Source: a virus
Taxonomy: Duplodnaviria > Heunggongvirae > Uroviricota > Caudoviricetes
Virus record (IMG/VR): IMGVR_UViG_2671180458_000007
Reading direction: 5' to 3' (one strand)
DNA length: 4,655 nucleotides
Made by a program: the position numbers and the translations under genes. Positions within the stretch are counted from its first letter, which is position 1, and each line of letters opens with the position of its first letter. The notes beneath the pieces were generated by a model. The model saw only the letters and a list, made by a program, of their open reading frames with translations, was not told the DNA's origin and did no database searches. This document shows, piece by piece, positions 1 to 4,655 of this stretch.

Positions 1-310
1 ATTTTGCGTTATCGGGAATATCGGGAAGTGACCGCCGCAGCCGTTCCGGCTTCGTCCACTGGTAAGTATTTTTCGCGCTCTCCCTCCGTTGTTGAGAACG
101 GCGGCGGTATGCCAGCAACGCAAGGACGCATGTTCGTATGTTGCACATATCCACGCCGTTAAGCTCAATACCATCACGGCGCATCACCTCAGCAACCACA
201 CGCGCATAATTTTCGGCGGTCACGCTGTCCGGCTGCGTGGCCTGTTCGTCAGCCTGCTGGCTGATTCCGGCGACGCGGCGGATTAATCCCAGTATTTCGG
301 CTTCTGTCAT
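1..310 (-). CDS. Hypothetical protein, partial (N-terminal 103 aa in window; 3' end lies beyond the left edge)
   Basis: ATG is the reverse complement of 308-310 and the frame stays open to position 1 (begins MTEAEILGLIRRVAGISQQADEQ...). A G-rich Shine-Dalgarno-like GGGGG sits 4-9 nt upstream. It follows the terminator and promoter cassette downstream of the capsid gene. No recognisable motif; lying downstream of a capsid gene it could be a head-tail connector or adaptor, but that is speculation. It is not in the supplied ORF track because it has no stop inside the window. Confidence 0.5.
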   Translation of the reverse strand, partial: MTEAEILGLIRRVAGISQQADEQATQPDSVTAENYARVVAEVMRRDGIELNGVDMCNIRTCVLALLAYRRRSQQRRESAKNTYQWTKPERLRRSLPDIPDNAK

Positions 311-463
311 TGTGCCCCCATCGCGCTGGTGAAGAAAACAAGCTCAGATTTTTTGTAAAGAATCTGTCACGCTAAAAGATGTCGAACAAAAATTAACCAC
401 AACCATCATCTTTTTTGCATCAACCACATTAAAAACAACAGGTTACACACATGATGATGATGA

Positions 464-561
464 CGATAAAATCACAAAAATGCGCTTTTTTCCGCGCCGC
501 CCGCCCCGTGTTCATACCCACCCCACCGGGAGGACCCGCAAAAAAGGCGGCTGGTGCCGCC
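464..561. repeat. Copy A of a ~100 bp conserved intergenic cassette (second copy at 3001-3098)
   Basis: By-eye alignment: aaaaatgcgcttttttccgcgccgcccgccccgtgt...cccaccccaccgggaggacccgcaaaaaag (A) against aaaaaatgcgcctttttccgcgccctcccgccccgtgt...cccaccccaccaggaggacccgcaaaaaag (B). Both copies sit immediately 3' of a minus-strand stop codon and end in a terminator hairpin. Confidence 0.7.
538..561 (-). terminator. Rho-independent terminator after the protease-capsid gene
   Basis: On the minus strand: GGCGGC-ACCA-GCCGCC hairpin (6-bp GC stem, 4-nt loop) followed by TTTTTTG, starting 6 nt after the TGA stop at 568-570. Confidence 0.7.
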
Positions 562-567
562 TTGTTG

Positions 568-2457
568 TCAGAGTGAATCTGTCCCGCCTGATTTGACCAT
601 ACCGCGATAATCCAGAGCTGCCACACCTGCATCAATACGGACTTTCCAGGCCACGCCGTCAACGATAAAACCTTCCTGCTGTTCAAGGTAAGGCTCGTCA
701 TTGCCATCAAGATAAGCCACCTCGATTGTGTCCGTTCCCTGTGCGGAAAGCATGTACCATTGTTTTTCGCTGATATCATCAAGGCGGGGATCGACGATGA
801 TATCAAGTAGCTTGTGGTACGGGTTAAAGATCCCGCTGTTTTTATCAGCCCCGAAAGGTGCGGTTGAGTTAATCATCTGCAACGCGCGATCTTCCAGTGC
901 TGCCGGAACTAAAAGGAATTTAGGCGCAATATTCAGCACTTCGCCATTTTTGTCCTTCTGTGTGCGCATCAGGTGACGTGCTGCACTAAGTCCCGGTGTT
1001 GTCAGTCCTGCTTCAATCAGGTTGCTGTGTTTTTTGTCAAACAGCGTTATTCCGTCAGAAAGTTTTACGTTGCCTGTAAGCACCAGATTAACCAGATTTC
1101 CCACCGTTCTTGATGCTGCACGGCCCATAGCCATTGGCACCGTTGATAACTGATCAAGGTCATCATTGATTATCGCCTGGCGGGTAATGCTGAAAATATT
1201 CCCGTAAGTAGCCAGCGCGATGGGTTCACCGCGATCGCTGGTGGTGATGTATTTATATTCTGCCCCTTCCGGAACTTTGTTTAACGTTGAGAAGCCATTC
1301 ATACCAACGCGGCGGGCTTCCCGGAAGTTTGAAAGGGAACCTTTTTTCGTCCACTGGCGGAATGTTTCGCCGCTGTGCTCCCAGCCTGCAAGCACTGATT
1401 TTTCAGCGCCACCAGCAAGGATATCGGTAAAATCGCTGCTGCTGTGGGTGAATGCCGCGTTTACTATCTGCGAGCGTGTGCTGTAGCTGCCCGTGCTTAT
1501 ACCACGATGGGTTAATGATGCCTGTGCCATATCGAAAAGGCTCATCATGGCGTAAGGATTACCGCGTTCGGCCCGTTCGTGACCAAGACGCGCATTAAGC
1601 CCCTGACGCATGGCATCGCCAGTTATATTGCCGTTATCCGTGTACGCGTAGTAAAGATTTGCGGGGGTGGTTTTGTTTGTTGGCGTTGATTCTTTACCCA
1701 TAGCGAGTAAAAGGCGTTCGCGTGCATTCTCAACGCTACATTCTGAATCCGCAAGACAACTTATAGCCAGGTCGTTATATCTTCCGTTGAAGGTGCCAAA
1801 CAATTCACGGATGCCGTTAAGTCGTTCCTGTTCGCCACTGCCAGTTTTCTGGCTGATCATGCTTTTAATTTTTTCCGGCATATTTGAAAAATCTCCGATT
1901 CGTTTTGATTCAATTCGGGCCATTGCTGTAATCGCGGGTATAACCTCATCTGCGAAACCGTTAGCCTTACACTCATTGCCATCCATCCAGGTTTCCGCCT
2001 CCATCATGGAGGTGATTTCCTGTTTGCTCCTGCCCGTTCTTCCGGCATAGGTTTCTGCCATCGTGTCGCCCAGCTTGTCCATCAGATCAGCAAAGCGGCG
2101 AACGTCGCCCGACACTCCGGCAGTAACACCACGGGGGGCATGTATCATCATCATCGCGTTTTCAGGCATAACGATATGATCTCCACACATGGCAATAAAC
2201 GAGGCCATAGAAGCCGCCATGCCTTCAATGTGTACGATTTTTTTTGCCGGATGATTTTTCAGAGCGTTATAGATAGCCAGCCCTTCAAAGATGTCGCCAC
2301 CAGGTGAATGGATGCGAAGATGGATTTCAGACGCATTACCACACGCGTTGATCTCGTCAGTAAGTGCCGATGCTTTTACACCGTACCCGCCGATCTCGTC
2401 ATAAATGCGCACATAGACAACATCTGCCATAGCCTTAATGGAAAACCATGTTTTCAT
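568..2457 (-). CDS. Prohead protease / major capsid fusion protein: N-terminal ClpP-family (S14) serine protease domain, linker or scaffold-like region, C-terminal putative major capsid domain (629 aa)
   Basis: Long intact ORF. The N-terminal ~190 aa carry ClpP signatures visible in the translation: HSPGGDIFEGLAIYNAL (ClpP INSPGG...AG.AIYD motif), GMAASMASFIA (active-site Ser motif G.AASMG), MMIHAPRG (active-site His motif MIHQP). The remaining ~430 aa are too long for a protease alone. Assigning them to a capsid domain rests on known ClpP-type prohead protease-capsid fusions in prophages, not on a motif I can verify by eye. ATG at 2455-2457 is preceded by AGGGG about 7 nt upstream and overlaps the upstream ORF stop (ATGA). 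Confidence 0.85.
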   Translation of the reverse strand: MKTWFSIKAMADVVYVRIYDEIGGYGVKASALTDEINACGNASEIHLRIHSPGGDIFEGLAIYNALKNHPAKKIVHIEGMAASMASFIAMCGDHIVMPENAMMMIHAPRGVTAGVSGDVRRFADLMDKLGDTMAETYAGRTGRSKQEITSMMEAETWMDGNECKANGFADEVIPAITAMARIESKRIGDFSNMPEKIKSMISQKTGSGEQERLNGIRELFGTFNGRYNDLAISCLADSECSVENARERLLLAMGKESTPTNKTTPANLYYAYTDNGNITGDAMRQGLNARLGHERAERGNPYAMMSLFDMAQASLTHRGISTGSYSTRSQIVNAAFTHSSSDFTDILAGGAEKSVLAGWEHSGETFRQWTKKGSLSNFREARRVGMNGFSTLNKVPEGAEYKYITTSDRGEPIALATYGNIFSITRQAIINDDLDQLSTVPMAMGRAASRTVGNLVNLVLTGNVKLSDGITLFDKKHSNLIEAGLTTPGLSAARHLMRTQKDKNGEVLNIAPKFLLVPAALEDRALQMINSTAPFGADKNSGIFNPYHKLLDIIVDPRLDDISEKQWYMLSAQGTDTIEVAYLDGNDEPYLEQQEGFIVDGVAWKVRIDAGVAALDYRGMVKSGGTDSL

Positions 2458-2648
2458 AGCCAGACCCCTAACGTTGCCCTGTACCAGTATTCAACCGCGC
2501 TGCGTGTGATTTGTCCTTTCGTGGGTACTGGCATACCCGGGTGATTATCTTTGATGAACTGCTGATAGCGTTCGATCTTCTCCATAGTTCCGGCGTCTAT
2601 GTGTACCGTGGCACTTTTATCCGGCTTTCTGGTGTTGTTCTCTGGCAT
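2454..2648 (-). CDS. Small hypothetical protein (64 aa), translationally coupled to the protease-capsid gene
   Basis: The ORF track gives 2454..2681 (75 aa, MMPVNQ...), but that start has no Shine-Dalgarno. The internal ATG at 2646-2648 (MPENNTRKPDKSATVHIDAGT...) has GGAGG (reverse complement of 2656-2660) 7 nt upstream, so I prefer it. The TGA stop overlaps the capsid ATG (ATGA at 2454-2457). Function unknown. Confidence 0.6.
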   Translation of the reverse strand: MPENNTRKPDKSATVHIDAGTMEKIERYQQFIKDNHPGMPVPTKGQITRSAVEYWYRATLGVWL

Positions 2649-2722
2649 AAATCCGCCTCCGTTTTGATTAACGGGCATCATTATTGATCGATAAAAGTAA
2701 TAGATAAATCATTTTCTACCTG

Positions 2723-2917: not shown

Positions 2918-3000
2918 TGATGAACAAAAAACAACCTGATTCGACACTAAAAATTTTTATTTCTCAACATATCAATAACTTATAGTGGTGGTGATGGTGC

Positions 3001-3098
3001 CATAAAAATCAAAAAATGCGCCTTTTTCCGCGCCCTCCCGCCCCGTGTACAGGCCCACCCCACCAGGAGGACCCGCAAAAAAGCCGGATTGCTCCGGC
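3001..3098. repeat. Copy B of the ~100 bp conserved intergenic cassette (first copy at 464-561)
   Basis: See copy A. It sits immediately 3' of the stop of the 3106-3378 gene and ends in a terminator hairpin. Confidence 0.7.
3076..3098 (-). terminator. Rho-independent terminator after the small regulator-like gene
   Basis: On the minus strand: GCCGGA-GCAA-TCCGGC hairpin followed by TTTTTTG, 8 nt after the TAA stop at 3106-3108. Confidence 0.7.
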
Positions 3099-3105
3099 TG
3101 TGTGA

Positions 3106-3378
3106 TTAGCTGTCCTGGTAATTGCGCCATATTTCATCACCAGCACCATCTATACCCATTTCGGCACAAGTGCGATTAACTGCATTTCTCAGGTCTCCGA
3201 AATTATCAGGCGGCTCCGGTGGCCTCTGTGCCTTCCTGGAACATTCCAGCCGTCGCATCGTGATGTGATGCCGTTCCTTGTCTGTCTCCACCAGCATCAT
3301 GACTTCACCCCATCGCGCCGCCGCCCTCCGGTAAAATCCTTTCGCTTCGAGTTCTTCCGCTATGCGGTCATGTACCAT
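3106..3378 (-). CDS. Small basic protein (~90 aa), possible PerC-like transcriptional regulator
   Basis: The ORF track gives 3106..3498 (130 aa), but that start overlaps the ssb 3' end by ~110 nt. The internal ATG at 3376-3378 (MVHDRIAEELEAKGFYRRAAARWGEVMMLVETDKERHHITMRRLECSRKAQRPPEPPD...) lies 10 nt after the ssb stop and has GAGGGGG 5-6 nt upstream. The PerC-like call rests on recalled resemblance of the N-terminal region and is unverified. Confidence 0.55.
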   Translation of the reverse strand: MVHDRIAEELEAKGFYRRAAARWGEVMMLVETDKERHHITMRRLECSRKAQRPPEPPDNFGDLRNAVNRTCAEMGIDGAGDEIWRNYQDS

Positions 3379-3388
3379 CGTCACCCCC

Positions 3389-3799
3389 TCAGAACGGAAT
3401 ATCATCACCGTAAGGGTCATCGCCTCCCGCTGGTGGCTGATTACCCTGTGTGCCTGTGGTTTTGCGTCTGTTCCCGCCTGGTCGCACCGTTTTCGCACTG
3501 ATTACGCTGTCGGCAATGACCTGATAACCCTGACGCGTCTCCCCGTTCTGTCCGGTCCACTGGCTTATCTGCATCACGCCGGATACGCTGATTACGTTGC
3601 CTTTCTCATGTCCTGCCAGTTGGTCGGCCTGTTTGCCAAATGCGATGACCGATAACCATAACGTCGCCTGTCCGTCCTGTGCCTGACTGCATGGCAGTGA
3701 TACCGCCATACGCGCCAGCGTCATCGGTGTGCCCTTGCTGGTCTGTTTTACCTGCGGGTCGTCCACCAGCCGCCCGTAAGCGGCTATCTGTGCTGTCAT
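3389..3799 (-). CDS. ssb: Single-stranded DNA-binding protein (SSB), compact 136-aa form
   Basis: The translation ends in DPYGDDIPF; the acidic DDIPF terminus is the conserved SSB protein-interaction tail (E. coli SSB ends DFDDDIPF). It is preceded by a Gly/Pro/Gln-rich linker and an OB-fold-like core (LWLSVIAFGKQADQLAGHEKGNVISVSG...QWTGQNGETRQ, compare E. coli [30 protein letters not shown]...KWTDQSGQDR). Good Shine-Dalgarno GGAGAGGTG upstream of the ATG at 3797-3799. Confidence 0.88.
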   Translation of the reverse strand: MTAQIAAYGRLVDDPQVKQTSKGTPMTLARMAVSLPCSQAQDGQATLWLSVIAFGKQADQLAGHEKGNVISVSGVMQISQWTGQNGETRQGYQVIADSVISAKTVRPGGNRRKTTGTQGNQPPAGGDDPYGDDIPF

Positions 3800-4085: not shown

Positions 4086-4314
4086 CCTTCACCTGTTCAC
4101 CTTTTGATATTTTATCTTTTAATTCATAATGTTAAGGGGTGAACAGTTTCACAAAAACTATTCACCAACTATTCACCACTGTTCACCCTTGAAGCTCAAT
4201 AAACAATCAAAAAGGTGAACAGTGAATAGTTTGGTGAACAGTTCATAAATAACTGTTCACCCTATAATATACTGATATAAAAGATATTTATGACAGAGTG
4301 AACAGTGGTGAACA
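4086..4314. repeat. Iteron array: ~11 copies of TGTTCACC/GGTGAACA (P4 type I iteron sequence) with AT-rich flanks; candidate crr- or ori-like cis replication site
   Basis: Exact or one-mismatch octamers at 4086, 4094, 4159, 4170, 4180, 4254 (TGTTCACC orientation) and 4138, 4214, 4222, 4233, 4297, 4307 (GGTGAACA orientation). Several are spaced 10-11 bp apart. Two ~50 bp imperfect direct repeats (4138-4188 and 4214-4262) each run from GGTGAACAGT to CTGTTCACCC. AT-rich stretches at 4101-4136 and 4262-4296. The array ends 15 bp from the stop of the flanking gene. Confidence 0.8.
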
Positions 4315-4328
4315 GTTATTCCATAAGT

Positions 4329-4655
4329 TTAATTTTTGCTATCGTCATTAGTGACCGATACACATGACGGCATCCAGTCTTCTGATTCCTCCGTCAGTTT
4401 CACGTTTGAACGCAAACCGTGCTTCGTTTTCCGTTTCATATACTCCCTGCCATATTCCGCCATTGCCCCCGGCATATCTTTACCGAAGCGCGTCAGTGTT
4501 ACAGGTTTACCAAACCCATGTGCCTTCATATAAGCCAGATAGGCATGATAGAGATACCTGCGCGGGCTGAATGGCACAATTTCAGCATTACCCACTAACA
4601 GGCCATCACACATTACCGACGACATGAGATAGCCGCAGAAGTCCACCAGCGAATC
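4329..4655 (-). CDS. C-terminal part of a replication protein, probably a P4 alpha-like primase/helicase (partial; 5' end beyond the right edge)
   Basis: The minus-strand frame is open from the window edge (…DSLVDFCGYLMSSVMCDGLLVG...) to TAA at 4329-4331. The first start codon in the window is a GTG, so the real start is presumably upstream of the window. The identity is inferred from context: in P4 the alpha gene is immediately followed by the crr iteron region that its C-terminal domain binds. No primase motif is visible in this fragment. Confidence 0.6.
   Translation of the reverse strand, partial: DSLVDFCGYLMSSVMCDGLLVGNAEIVPFSPRRYLYHAYLAYMKAHGFGKPVTLTRFGKDMPGAMAEYGREYMKRKTKHGLRSNVKLTEESEDWMPSCVSVTNDDSKN

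What the first reader, a model, noticed from the sequence alone, without database searches (positions are those of the whole stretch)
568..2457. Single polypeptide combining a ClpP-type protease with a putative scaffold and capsid domain
The ClpP motifs (SPGG, G.AASM, MIHAP) are all within the first ~110 residues, yet the protein continues for another ~500 residues. Protease, linker and capsid in one chain implies self-processing during prohead maturation and fixed stoichiometry. Mapping the cleavage sites and the assembled capsid size would be informative, particularly if this belongs to a satellite that makes small capsids.
Basis: partly seen in the sequence, partly recalled or inferred. Interest (0 to 1): 0.55.

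Follow-up and report, generated by a model that had tools for sequence, protein, structure and literature searches.

The report
Satellite-borne protease–scaffold–capsid fusion gene
This is a real single gene encoding a protease, a scaffold-like segment and a phage head protein in one chain; the design is already known from phage Gifsy-2, but here it sits in a small E. coli phage satellite, where its role has not been tested.

Summary
Window 568..2457 (minus strand) is one intact 629-aa ORF. It has an N-terminal ClpP-like protease (aa ~1-175; Ser83/His106/Glu155), a helical middle segment (~176-329) and a C-terminal Mu-gpT-type (HK97-fold family) major capsid domain (~330-629).

It is not new. 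The identical protein is named in RefSeq as [quoted passage not shown] (NCBIfam NF045540, 890 bits against a cutoff of 475). [quoted passage not shown] Homologues occur in VT1-Sakai, mEp460, cdtI, Pseudomonas F10 and 38% of complete E. coli genomes.

The added value is context. The window is the late zone of a ~11-kb Gram-negative PICI satellite with no portal, terminase, decoration or tail genes. Satellite copies form one old clade, sit under purifying selection in all three domains and lack ~30 linker residues. The operon lies between two cos-like repeats, one 93.5% identical to the cos region of an Stx2a phage with the homologous head gene.

My best reading is a one-gene shell kit for the satellite. 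Its capsid size and necessity are untested.

The parts
568..2457 (-). Tripartite capsid gene (629 aa plus stop): ClpP-like prohead protease, scaffold-like segment and major capsid protein
   Evidence: ORF. NF045540 scores 889.8 bits against a cutoff of 475. PHROG 133 E 6e-280. 49.7% identical over 99% of its length to the Gifsy-2 gene (H89).
1933..2457 (-). Protease domain, aa 1-175. Catalytic codons: Ser83 at 2209-2211, His106 at 2140-2142, Glu155 at 1993-1995
   Evidence: Pfam CLP_protease E 3.9e-33. NF045542 head maturation protease, 201.5 bits against a cutoff of 120. The triad aligns with E. coli ClpP S111/H136/D185 and is invariant in A2. AlphaFold pLDDT mostly 80-94, with dips at aa 1-10, 21-30, 51-60 and 111-120. 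Coordinates verified.
1471..1932 (-). Middle segment, aa 176-329: mostly helical and presumed to act as scaffold or delta domain. It contains the satellite-specific short linker (aa 201-211, nt 1825-1857) and a conserved segment modelled with low confidence, GKESTPxNK...GNGN (aa 254-277)
   Evidence: AlphaFold predicts helices 195-337 with pLDDT mostly 50-80, dropping to 32-47 over aa 251-280. No Pfam domain matches. Linker length is 11 aa here against 39-56 aa in prophage copies.
571..1470 (-). Major capsid protein domain, aa 330-629 (Mu gpT-like, HK97-fold family)
   Evidence: Pfam Phage_capsid_4 E 1.2e-54 and Mu-like_gpT E 7e-9. The profile hits solved capsid proteins 8rkx/8rkc at E 7e-8 and 9jod at 1.2e-6. 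The top Foldseek hits of a low-confidence model are the same capsids.
1879..1896 (-). Possible nested start: invariant Met193 codon (1879-1881) with an SD-like GGAG (1893-1896) 11 nt upstream
   Evidence: GGAG or GAGGA is kept at this spacing in satellite clade 1, satellite clade 2 and the Stx phage, although the encoded residues differ (GD versus EE). The evidence is weak.
2454..2648 (-). Small ORF (64 aa from the SD-preceded ATG; 75 aa from 2681) translationally coupled to the fusion gene by an ATGA overlap. It is satellite-specific and of unknown function
   Evidence: PHROG 4934 E 9e-51, function unknown. 38% identical to the 69-aa ORF at the same place in sister islands, with no match in the phage. 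Sequence and overlap shown.
452..562 (-). cos-like repeat 1, directly downstream of the fusion gene: GC hairpin plus T-run (546-561) and a cosN-like GGGCGGCGCGGA (491-502)
   Evidence: Direct repeat D1. 93.5% identical over 123 nt to the region upstream of TerS in Stx2a phage Stx2_95. The mEp213/LLS cosN is GGGCGGCGCGCT (PMC12315714).
2989..3099 (-). cos-like repeat 2, upstream of the operon and just after PerC: terminator-like hairpin (3082-3099) and a degenerate cosN-like core (3027-3043)
   Evidence: 75-81% identical to repeat 1. 85% identical over 110 nt to the Stx2_95 cos region. The terminator scan flags the hairpin.

Best explanation
Identity (about 0.95 sure): this is a Gifsy-2-type 'tripartite capsid gene', that is, one polypeptide with a ClpP-like serine protease (Ser83-His106-Glu155), a helical scaffold-like segment and a Mu-gpT/HK97-fold major capsid domain. 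It is carried in the late zone of a ~11-kb Gram-negative phage-inducible chromosomal island (PICI). Protein-level mechanism (inferred from homology with Gifsy-2, HK97 and lambda): the C-terminal domains build the procapsid shell, with the protease and scaffold parts pointing inward. Once enclosed, the proteases cut away everything N-terminal of the capsid domain, probably within aa ~254-335, which empties the shell for DNA. Satellite-level role (inferred, about 0.45 sure): the gene is a one-gene shell kit. A helper lambdoid phage of the Stx/VT1-Sakai/mEp460/Gifsy-2 head type would supply portal, terminase, decoration, head-completion and tail proteins. Its terminase would cut the satellite's near-exact copy of the helper cos site and fill satellite-made shells. 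The roughly 30-residue shorter internal linker in all satellite copies may set a smaller shell suited to an 11-kb genome.
For: Domains and family. Triad alignment and invariance. Full-length homology to Gifsy-2 (49.7%), VT1-Sakai, mEp460, cdtI and F10. The literature says Gifsy-2's protease and coat genes are fused, that its capsid is T=7, and that it carries a trimeric decoration protein (PMC12315714; PMC8814770; PMC8538268). Capsid domain against solved Mu-type capsids. Satellite context (int, regulator, primase, SSB, PerC, small ORF, fusion, 93-aa ORF; no portal, TerL or tail genes). Maintenance in satellites: every copy examined is intact, with dN/dS of 0.14 within the clade and 0.19 between satellite clades, in all three domains. 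Satellite copies are monophyletic in 200 of 200 bootstraps. At least 80% of the gene is present in 143 of 144 carrier genomes. A retained catalytic triad argues that the protein must process itself without helper protease, which fits homomeric shells. The cos-like repeat is 93.5% identical to the Stx2_95 cos region. The shortened linker is specific to satellites. The island is ~11 kb, which matches the predicted T=3 capacity of 11.8 kb and lies below the T=4 range of 13-24 kb (PMC7762592).
Against: No experiment exists on this satellite type. [quoted passage not shown] The satellite has no portal or decoration gene, so its shell protein (only 52-56% identical to helper copies) would have to work with helper partners. 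The AlphaFold model of the capsid domain is poor. The link between linker length and capsid size is speculation. The processing site was not determined.
Confidence: 0.6

Rival explanations
1. Interference or size redirection by co-assembly. The satellite protein mixes with the helper's homologous capsid protein (or competes for its portal) and spoils or shrinks helper procapsids. This would lower phage yield and favour the satellite, as the capsid homologue Ccm of SaPIbov5 does.
For: The satellite and helper proteins share a family and are 52-56% identical. PMC6092414 states that the SaPIbov5 capsid homologue Ccm blocks the phage by making small capsids, and that PmCI172 makes small capsids and encodes a capsid homologue. 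The satellite-specific linker deletion could alter curvature in mixed shells.
Against: A pure poison would not need an active protease, yet the triad is invariant and the protease domain has the lowest within-clade dN/dS, 0.06. There is no PADLOC defence hit. In EcCICFT073 the capsid gene was not the interference factor; RppA was (PMC6739421).
Confidence: 0.2
2. A captured late gene with little or no present role in transfer. It might serve as a spare part, a backup copy or a recombination substrate picked up from a helper and carried along.
For: Tommasini et al. 2023 describe the PICI 'late zone' as a dynamic region that captures helper late genes. They report capsid genes in 21 of 29 reference Gram-negative PICIs and state that they are not required for transfer (PMC10111431). 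The EcCICFT073 deletions had no phenotype.
Against: This is not a recent capture. Satellite copies form one deep clade sister to all enterobacterial phage copies, with dS saturated between the satellite clades and dN/dS of 0.14-0.19. At least 80% of the gene is present in 143 of 144 carrier genomes. The module is kept on different backbones and at different integration sites. A useless 1.9-kb gene in an 11-kb element should decay.
Confidence: 0.15
3. The gene does not function only as one chain. A nested internal start at Met193 also yields a scaffold-capsid product without the protease, as with lambda C/Nu3 (this comparison rests on my own knowledge), so the protease-to-capsid ratio is not 1:1.
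For: Met179, Met193 and Met200 are invariant in 24 homologues. A GGAG or GAGGA lies 10-11 nt upstream of the Met193 codon in both satellite clades and in the Stx phage, even though the encoded residues differ.
Against: The spacing of 10-11 nt is longer than optimal. Only three DNA lineages were examined. The conserved SKRxxxFxxMPxxIxxM motif may simply be a protein-level feature. I found no report of such a product.
Confidence: 0.25

Closest known systems
[quoted passage not shown] 2010, Virology 402:355) and its homologues in VT1-Sakai, CP-1639, mEp460, mEp213, cdtI, LLS and Pseudomonas F10
   Same: Colinear over 99% of the length at 48-52% identity. It has the same three parts: ClpP-like protease, central segment and capsid domain.
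   Different: The phage genes sit between the portal gene and a decoration gene inside a full head-tail operon. This one sits in an 11-kb satellite with neither. The satellite copies lack about 30 residues of the P/A/T/Q-rich linker and form their own clade.
NCBIfam NF045540 (scaf_prot_MCP1), 'ClpP-like prohead protease/major capsid protein fusion protein'; also PHROG 133
   Same: It scores 889.8 bits against a cutoff of 475, and RefSeq names the identical protein with this label.
   Different: Nothing differs at the family level. The family name says nothing about residence in a satellite.
Capsid genes of Gram-negative PICIs, e.g. EcCICFT073 c1499/c1500 (Fillol-Salom 2018)
   Same: It occupies the same slot in the same kind of island: PerC, small ORF, capsid gene..., a conserved 93-aa ORF (74-87% identical). 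The module lies near two cos sites.
   Different: EcCICFT073 carries a lambda gpE-type capsid protein plus a gpD-type decoration protein, with no detectable similarity to this protein. It also carries RppA, which this island lacks.
Ccm of SaPIbov5 (a capsid-protein homologue that makes small capsids)
   Same: It is a satellite-encoded homologue of the helper's major capsid protein in a cos-packaged island (PMC6092414).
   Different: Ccm belongs to a Gram-positive system and is not reported there as fused to a protease or scaffold. No sequence comparison was made here.
Capsid-forming PICIs (cf-PICI, e.g. EcCIEDL933)
   Same: The satellite encodes its own capsid protein and protease.
   Different: cf-PICIs also encode TerL, TerS, portal and head-tail connectors (PMC10085698). 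None of these is present in this island.
HK97 (scaffold-like delta domain fused to the capsid protein, separate protease) and lambda (protease C with nested scaffold Nu3, separate capsid protein E)
   Same: The logic is the same: an internal scaffold and a protease are removed after shell assembly (established knowledge; the title of Effantin 2010 links Gifsy-2 to both).
   Different: Here all three functions are in one reading frame. The protease is of the ClpP (S14) type.

Membership tests
NF045540 ClpP-like prohead protease/major capsid protein fusion (scaf_prot_MCP1) | Whole-protein score above the curated cutoff of 475 bits | tested here: met
   889.8 bits, E 1.3e-267.
NF045540 ClpP-like prohead protease/major capsid protein fusion (scaf_prot_MCP1) | N-terminal ClpP-related head maturation protease domain with catalytic Ser and His | tested here: met
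   NF045542 scores 201.5 bits against a cutoff of 120. S83, H106 and E155 align with ClpP S111, H136 and D185 and are invariant.
NF045540 ClpP-like prohead protease/major capsid protein fusion (scaf_prot_MCP1) | C-terminal major capsid protein domain in the same chain | tested here: met
   PF25209 matches aa 330-623 at E 1.2e-54. The profile hits solved Mu-type capsid proteins at E 7e-8.
Gifsy-2-type tripartite capsid gene | Colinear full-length homology with the Gifsy-2 protein | tested here: met
   49.7% identity over 99% of the query (H89). Per-domain identity is 53%, 44% and 58%.
Gifsy-2-type tripartite capsid gene | Located in a phage head operon between the portal gene and the decoration gene | tested here: not met
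   The island has no portal and no decoration gene. Phages do have both.
Gifsy-2-type tripartite capsid gene | Self-processing to a mature capsid protein and assembly of a T=7 shell | not testable with these tools
   This needs expression, mass spectrometry and electron microscopy.
HK97-fold major capsid proteins | Three-dimensional fold (N-arm, E-loop, spine helix, P and A domains) | tested here: inconclusive
   The AlphaFold C-terminal model has pLDDT 56 and pTM 0.49. The top Foldseek hits are capsids of JBD30 and Mu, but with TM-scores of only 0.26-0.28. Sequence-profile homology to those capsids is significant.
Bona fide ClpP (ATP-dependent Clp protease proteolytic subunit, TIGR00493) | Score above the equivalog cutoff of 308.6 bits | tested here: not met
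   63.3 bits. It is related to ClpP but is not a cellular ClpP.
Gram-negative PICI (Fillol-Salom 2018; SatelliteFinder 2023) | Integrase at one end, next to an att site | tested here: met
   In L001 the integrase lies next to tRNA-Pro. Other copies lie at cspD/clpS. The exact att core was not found.
Gram-negative PICI (Fillol-Salom 2018; SatelliteFinder 2023) | AlpA-type regulator | tested here: inconclusive
   L001 has a 68-aa 'helix-turn-helix transcriptional regulator' after the integrase. Sister islands carry PF05930 Phage_AlpA at that place. I did not scan the L001 protein.
Gram-negative PICI (Fillol-Salom 2018; SatelliteFinder 2023) | Own primase/replication module with an ori downstream | tested here: met
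   A D5-type primase is present. GGTGAACAGT iterons at window 4090-4330 lie just downstream of it.
Gram-negative PICI (Fillol-Salom 2018; SatelliteFinder 2023) | Small size (10-20 kb) and no lysis or tail genes | tested here: met
   About 11 kb lie between yejO and tRNA-Pro, and no such genes are annotated.
Gram-negative PICI (Fillol-Salom 2018; SatelliteFinder 2023) | A packaging device: helper-type cos site, TerS or Rpp | tested here: met
   The cos-like repeat is 93.5% identical to a phage cos region. This island has no TerS and no Rpp, whereas sister islands carry a DUF1441 protein 48% identical to the phage TerS.
Gram-negative PICI (Fillol-Salom 2018; SatelliteFinder 2023) | Induction and high-frequency transfer by a helper phage | not testable with these tools
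   This needs an experiment.
Capsid-forming PICI (cf-PICI) | Own TerL, portal and head-tail adaptor/connector genes | tested here: not met
   None is present in L001, L003-L006, L009 or L011. The criteria come from PMC10085698.

The most novel reading that the evidence does not exclude
The satellite lineage of this tripartite gene, with its shortened internal linker, may be a complete one-gene capsid kit. It would build small (T=3 or T=4) satellite-only shells on the helper's portal. That would make these ~11-kb islands a minimal 'capsid-forming' satellite class, intermediate between classical PICIs (which steal whole heads) and cf-PICIs (which steal only tails). It would also give a natural example in which the length of an internal scaffold linker sets capsid size.
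Probability: 0.3. Interest if true: 0.65.

Novelty: already known. Interest (0 to 1): 0.3.

Why it matters
The fusion itself is textbook-adjacent. It was described for Gifsy-2 in 2010, it is curated by NCBI, and it is present in over a third of complete E. coli genomes. What remains open is why most Gram-negative PICIs carry a capsid gene at all, since the only deletion tested (an unrelated capsid type in EcCICFT073) had no phenotype. This variant makes the question easier to test, because one gene carries protease, scaffold and shell. Expressing it alone, with or without S83A, would show at once whether it forms shells, what size they are and whether it cuts itself. The matched cos site also points to which helper phages to use. 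The carriers include EHEC lineages (O157, O111, O121), and the candidate helpers include Stx-converting phages, so the satellite could affect the spread of Shiga-toxin phages.

Tried and rejected
1. AlphaFold on the full-length protein with a 24-sequence alignment modelled the protease domain well, but the capsid domain failed at pLDDT ~25. A second run on the C-terminal 367 aa with 38 sequences gave only pLDDT 56, so the fold match is supportive only.
2. I looked for an exact att core between the tRNA-Pro end and the yejO end of the island. No repeat of 14 nt or more exists, only a 25-nt imperfect repeat that is probably arm-type sites. The island size is therefore approximate.
3. I tested whether the EcCICFT073 capsid protein c1499 is a homologue. 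It is not, so its negative deletion results cannot be transferred directly.
4. A pattern search for the mEp213 cosN alone is no better than chance. The cos assignment rests on the 123-nt match at 93.5% to the phage cos region.
5. The ~20-aa N-terminal extension of the phage proteins is probably a start-codon calling difference, since some entries start at MKNKSWF. I do not count it as a satellite-specific deletion.
6. PADLOC gave no defence hit for the fusion or its neighbours. A lenient Pfam search gave nothing for the small ORFs.
7. The original Gifsy-2 paper is not held. Details beyond what the citing papers state are from my memory and are marked as such.
8. The E. coli 042 island tested in 2018 ('1749::cat') is described there as EcCICFT073-related and corresponding to O-island 51, so it appears not to be the fusion-carrying island at cspD/clpS. 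I did not compare coordinates directly.
Full report
**The observation**

The window holds one long ORF at exactly the reported coordinates: 568..2457 on the minus strand, 629 aa, ATG start. The quoted motifs are present: SPGG at aa 51-54, GMAASMAS at aa 79-86 and MIHAP at aa 104-108.

Domain scans are unambiguous.
- Pfam CLP_protease matches aa 41-173 (E 3.9e-33) and Phage_capsid_4 matches aa 330-623 (E 1.2e-54), with a weaker Mu-like_gpT hit.
- PHROG 133 scores E 6e-280, and PHROG 4523 'major head and protease protein' scores E 4e-110.
- NCBIfam NF045540, 'ClpP-like prohead protease/major capsid protein fusion protein', scores 889.8 bits against a curated cutoff of 475.

**The protease**

Pairwise alignment with E. 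coli ClpP places Ser83, His106 and Glu155 on the catalytic Ser111, His136 and Asp185. All three are invariant in a 24-sequence alignment spanning 52-100% identity. The protein scores far below the cutoffs for cellular ClpP (63 bits against 308.6), so it is a ClpP-related head maturation protease and not a ClpP.

**The middle and C-terminal parts**

AlphaFold with a shallow alignment modelled aa 1-175 confidently (pLDDT mostly 80-94) and aa ~195-337 as a run of helices (pLDDT mostly 50-80). A conserved segment, GKESTPxNK...GNGN at aa 254-277, came out with low confidence. The capsid domain was not modelled well.

Homology settles its nature instead. A profile of the C-terminal 360 positions hits the solved capsid proteins of phage JBD30 (8rkx, 8rkc; E 7e-8) and phage Mu (9jod; E 1.2e-6). 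The same two structures are the top Foldseek hits of the weak model.

**It is already known**

The identical protein is in RefSeq under the NF045540 name. tblastn finds full-length homologues (at least 80% coverage) in 80 phage records. These include Stx2a phages (51.6%), VT1-Sakai, CP-1639, mEp460, mEp213, mEp043, cdtI, LLS, Pseudomonas F10 and LESphi3, and Gifsy-2 (49.7% over 99%).

[quoted passage not shown]' (Effantin et al. 2010). That paper is not held, but citing papers state three things about it:
- its capsid is T=7 for a 45.8-kb genome (PMC8814770);
- it carries a trimeric decoration protein at the three-fold axes (PMC8538268).

The phage-type gene occurs in 2,070 of 5,426 complete E. 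coli genomes.

**The context**

The window is 99.1% identical to a chromosomal island in E. coli JNEC-KY174. In transcription order that island reads: tRNA-Pro, integrase, HTH regulator, Icd-like, DUF4222, D5-type primase, 81-aa ORF, SSB, PerC, small ORF, fusion, 93-aa ORF, then host yejO. It spans about 11 kb and has no portal, terminase, decoration, lysis or tail gene.

This is the organisation of Gram-negative PICIs. The model island EcCICFT073 has the same slot (PerC, small ORF, capsid gene..., 93-aa ORF at 74-87% identity). There the slot is filled by an unrelated lambda gpE-type capsid protein plus a gpD-type decoration protein, followed by RppA.

The literature already notes that capsid genes are the commonest late gene in Gram-negative PICIs (21 of 29 references) and that some PICIs carry a CLP_protease gene (PMC10111431). 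[quoted passage not shown]

**What is specific to the satellite copies**

1. A second clade (62% identical, 637-638 aa) also sits in PICIs, at two or more chromosomal sites. There it is followed by a DUF1441 protein that is 48% identical to the Stx-phage TerS.
2. The two satellite clades are monophyletic in 200 of 200 NJ bootstraps and sister to all enterobacterial phage copies. This points to one old capture rather than repeated recent ones.
3. All three domains are under purifying selection. dN/dS is 0.14 within clade 1 (25 synonymous against 12 non-synonymous differences) and 0.19 between clades. The clade-1 gene is present in 144 of 5,426 genomes, and 143 of them hold at least 80% of it.
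4. The same late module rides on different backbones and sites: tRNA-Pro/yejM, and cspD/clpS with either a D5 primase or a RepA helicase.
5. The linker between the conserved M200 and R212 motifs is 11 aa in clade 1 (n=73) and 16-17 aa in clade 2 (n=45). It is 39-56 aa (median 43) in 116 enterobacterial prophage copies.
6. Phages place a decoration gene directly after the fusion gene. The satellites do not.

**Packaging signals**

A 111-nt direct repeat (452-562 and 2989-3099) brackets the operon made of the small ORF and the fusion gene. Each copy begins with a GC hairpin plus a T-run, placed right after the fusion stop codon and right after PerC.

Repeat 1 is 93.5% identical over 123 nt to the region upstream of TerS in Stx2a phage Stx2_95. 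It contains GGGCGGCGCGGA, against the inferred mEp213/LLS cosN GGGCGGCGCGCT and the lambda cosN GGGCGGCGACCT. Repeat 2 is 85% identical to the same phage region and is degenerate in the core.

EcCICFT073 likewise has two cos sites, but of lambda type, matching its lambda-type helpers and capsid gene. So both the cos type and the capsid-gene type of a PICI track its helper's head type. This island's likely helpers are lambdoid phages with the tripartite head gene. A near-exact helper cos would also explain why the island lacks both TerS and Rpp.

**How it most likely works**

Shown here: domain identity, triad conservation, residence in a satellite, purifying selection and the match to a helper cos region.

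Inferred from the homologous systems: the capsid domains form a procapsid with the protease and scaffold parts inside, and the proteases then remove everything N-terminal of the capsid domain.

Inferred, at about 0.45 probability: in the satellite this single gene supplies a private shell, which assembles on the helper's portal and is filled by the helper's terminase at the satellite's cos site. Retention of an active-looking protease argues for shells that contain no helper protease.

An 11-kb genome matches the predicted T=3 capacity (11.8 kb; 95% interval 8.1-17.1 kb) and would underfill T=4. About four copies would be needed to fill a T=7 head (PMC7762592). Whether the shortened linker changes shell size is speculation.

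**Rivals**

- Co-assembly with the helper capsid protein, causing interference or size redirection as Ccm does (0.2).
- A largely dispensable captured late gene (0.15). The deep clade and the selection argue against this.
- Independently of the role question, a nested start at the invariant Met193, with GGAG 11 nt upstream and conserved in three DNA lineages, would break the 1:1 stoichiometry (0.25).

**Verdict**

The feature is already known both as a protein architecture and as a class of PICI cargo. Residual interest lies in the untested function of the satellite-specific subfamily.

Noticed in passing
window 452-562 and 2989-3099: A 111-nt direct repeat brackets the capsid operon. Each copy has a terminator-like hairpin followed by a cosN-like core. 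Copy 1 is 93.5% identical over 123 nt to the cos region of Stx2a phage Stx2_95 (L007 4458-4580), and copy 2 is degenerate. This mirrors the cos1/cos2 pair of EcCICFT073.
   Followed up: yes
window 4090-4330: At least eight copies of GGTGAACAGT, in both orientations, lie immediately downstream of the primase gene. They look like the iterons of a PICI replication origin.
   Followed up: no
window 2454-2681 (-): A small ORF (64-75 aa, PHROG 4934, no known function) is translationally coupled to the fusion gene by an ATGA overlap. It is conserved at 38% identity at the same place in the sister satellite clade and is absent from the phages. By eye its sequence (TVHIDAGTMEKIERYQQFIK...TKGQITRSAVEYWY) resembles a ribbon-helix-helix DNA-binding protein. 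No Pfam hit was found.
   Followed up: partly
window 2-310 (-), runs off the left end: A 93-aa ORF is conserved in all three PICI types examined, including EcCICFT073 (74-87% identity), so it belongs to the PICI backbone and is not phage-derived. In this window the stop codon seen in L001 is missing, and the frame stays open to the window edge.
   Followed up: partly
window 3106-3378 (-) and 3389-3799 (-): A PerC-family regulator (Pfam E 1.6e-41) and an SSB sit upstream of the capsid operon. PerC alleles in PICIs have been linked to regulation of the LEE pathogenicity island, either activating or repressing it (PMC6092414; PMC11773190). The long 130-aa ORF call overlaps SSB, whereas RefSeq uses the 90-aa version.
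   Followed up: no
L003-L006, 12171-12656 (L005: 12161-12646): The sister satellite clade carries a DUF1441 protein 48% identical to the TerS of the Stx phage, between the fusion gene and the 93-aa ORF. The window's island lacks it and lacks Rpp, so it seems to rely on its helper-like cos site alone.
   Followed up: partly
L012 4001-7480 (prophage in E. coli GCA_012637905.1); proteins P0193-P0202 and P0211: In one prophage lineage a 1-nt difference near the 3' end of the portal gene joins the portal and the tripartite gene into a single 1,159-aa ORF (portal, protease, scaffold, capsid). This is seen in nine or more protein clusters from different sources, so it is probably not a sequencing error. 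Whether a portal-capsid polyprotein is actually made is unknown.
   Followed up: partly
NZ_AP045176.1 2438758-2439791 (E. coli JNEC-KY179): This is the only one of 144 carrier genomes where the satellite gene is not full length. It shows 55% coverage and is annotated as separate 'phage major capsid protein' and 'Clp protease' pieces, so it is a disrupted copy.
   Followed up: no
window 2140-2142 region (His106 motif): Tommasini et al. report helper-embedded PICIs that integrate at codon ~110 of the CLP_protease profile, both in prophage copies and in PICI copies of this kind of gene. By the Pfam coordinates (aa 41 = profile position 45), that site falls at about aa 106, the catalytic-His motif MMIHAP (PMC10111431).
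   Followed up: no
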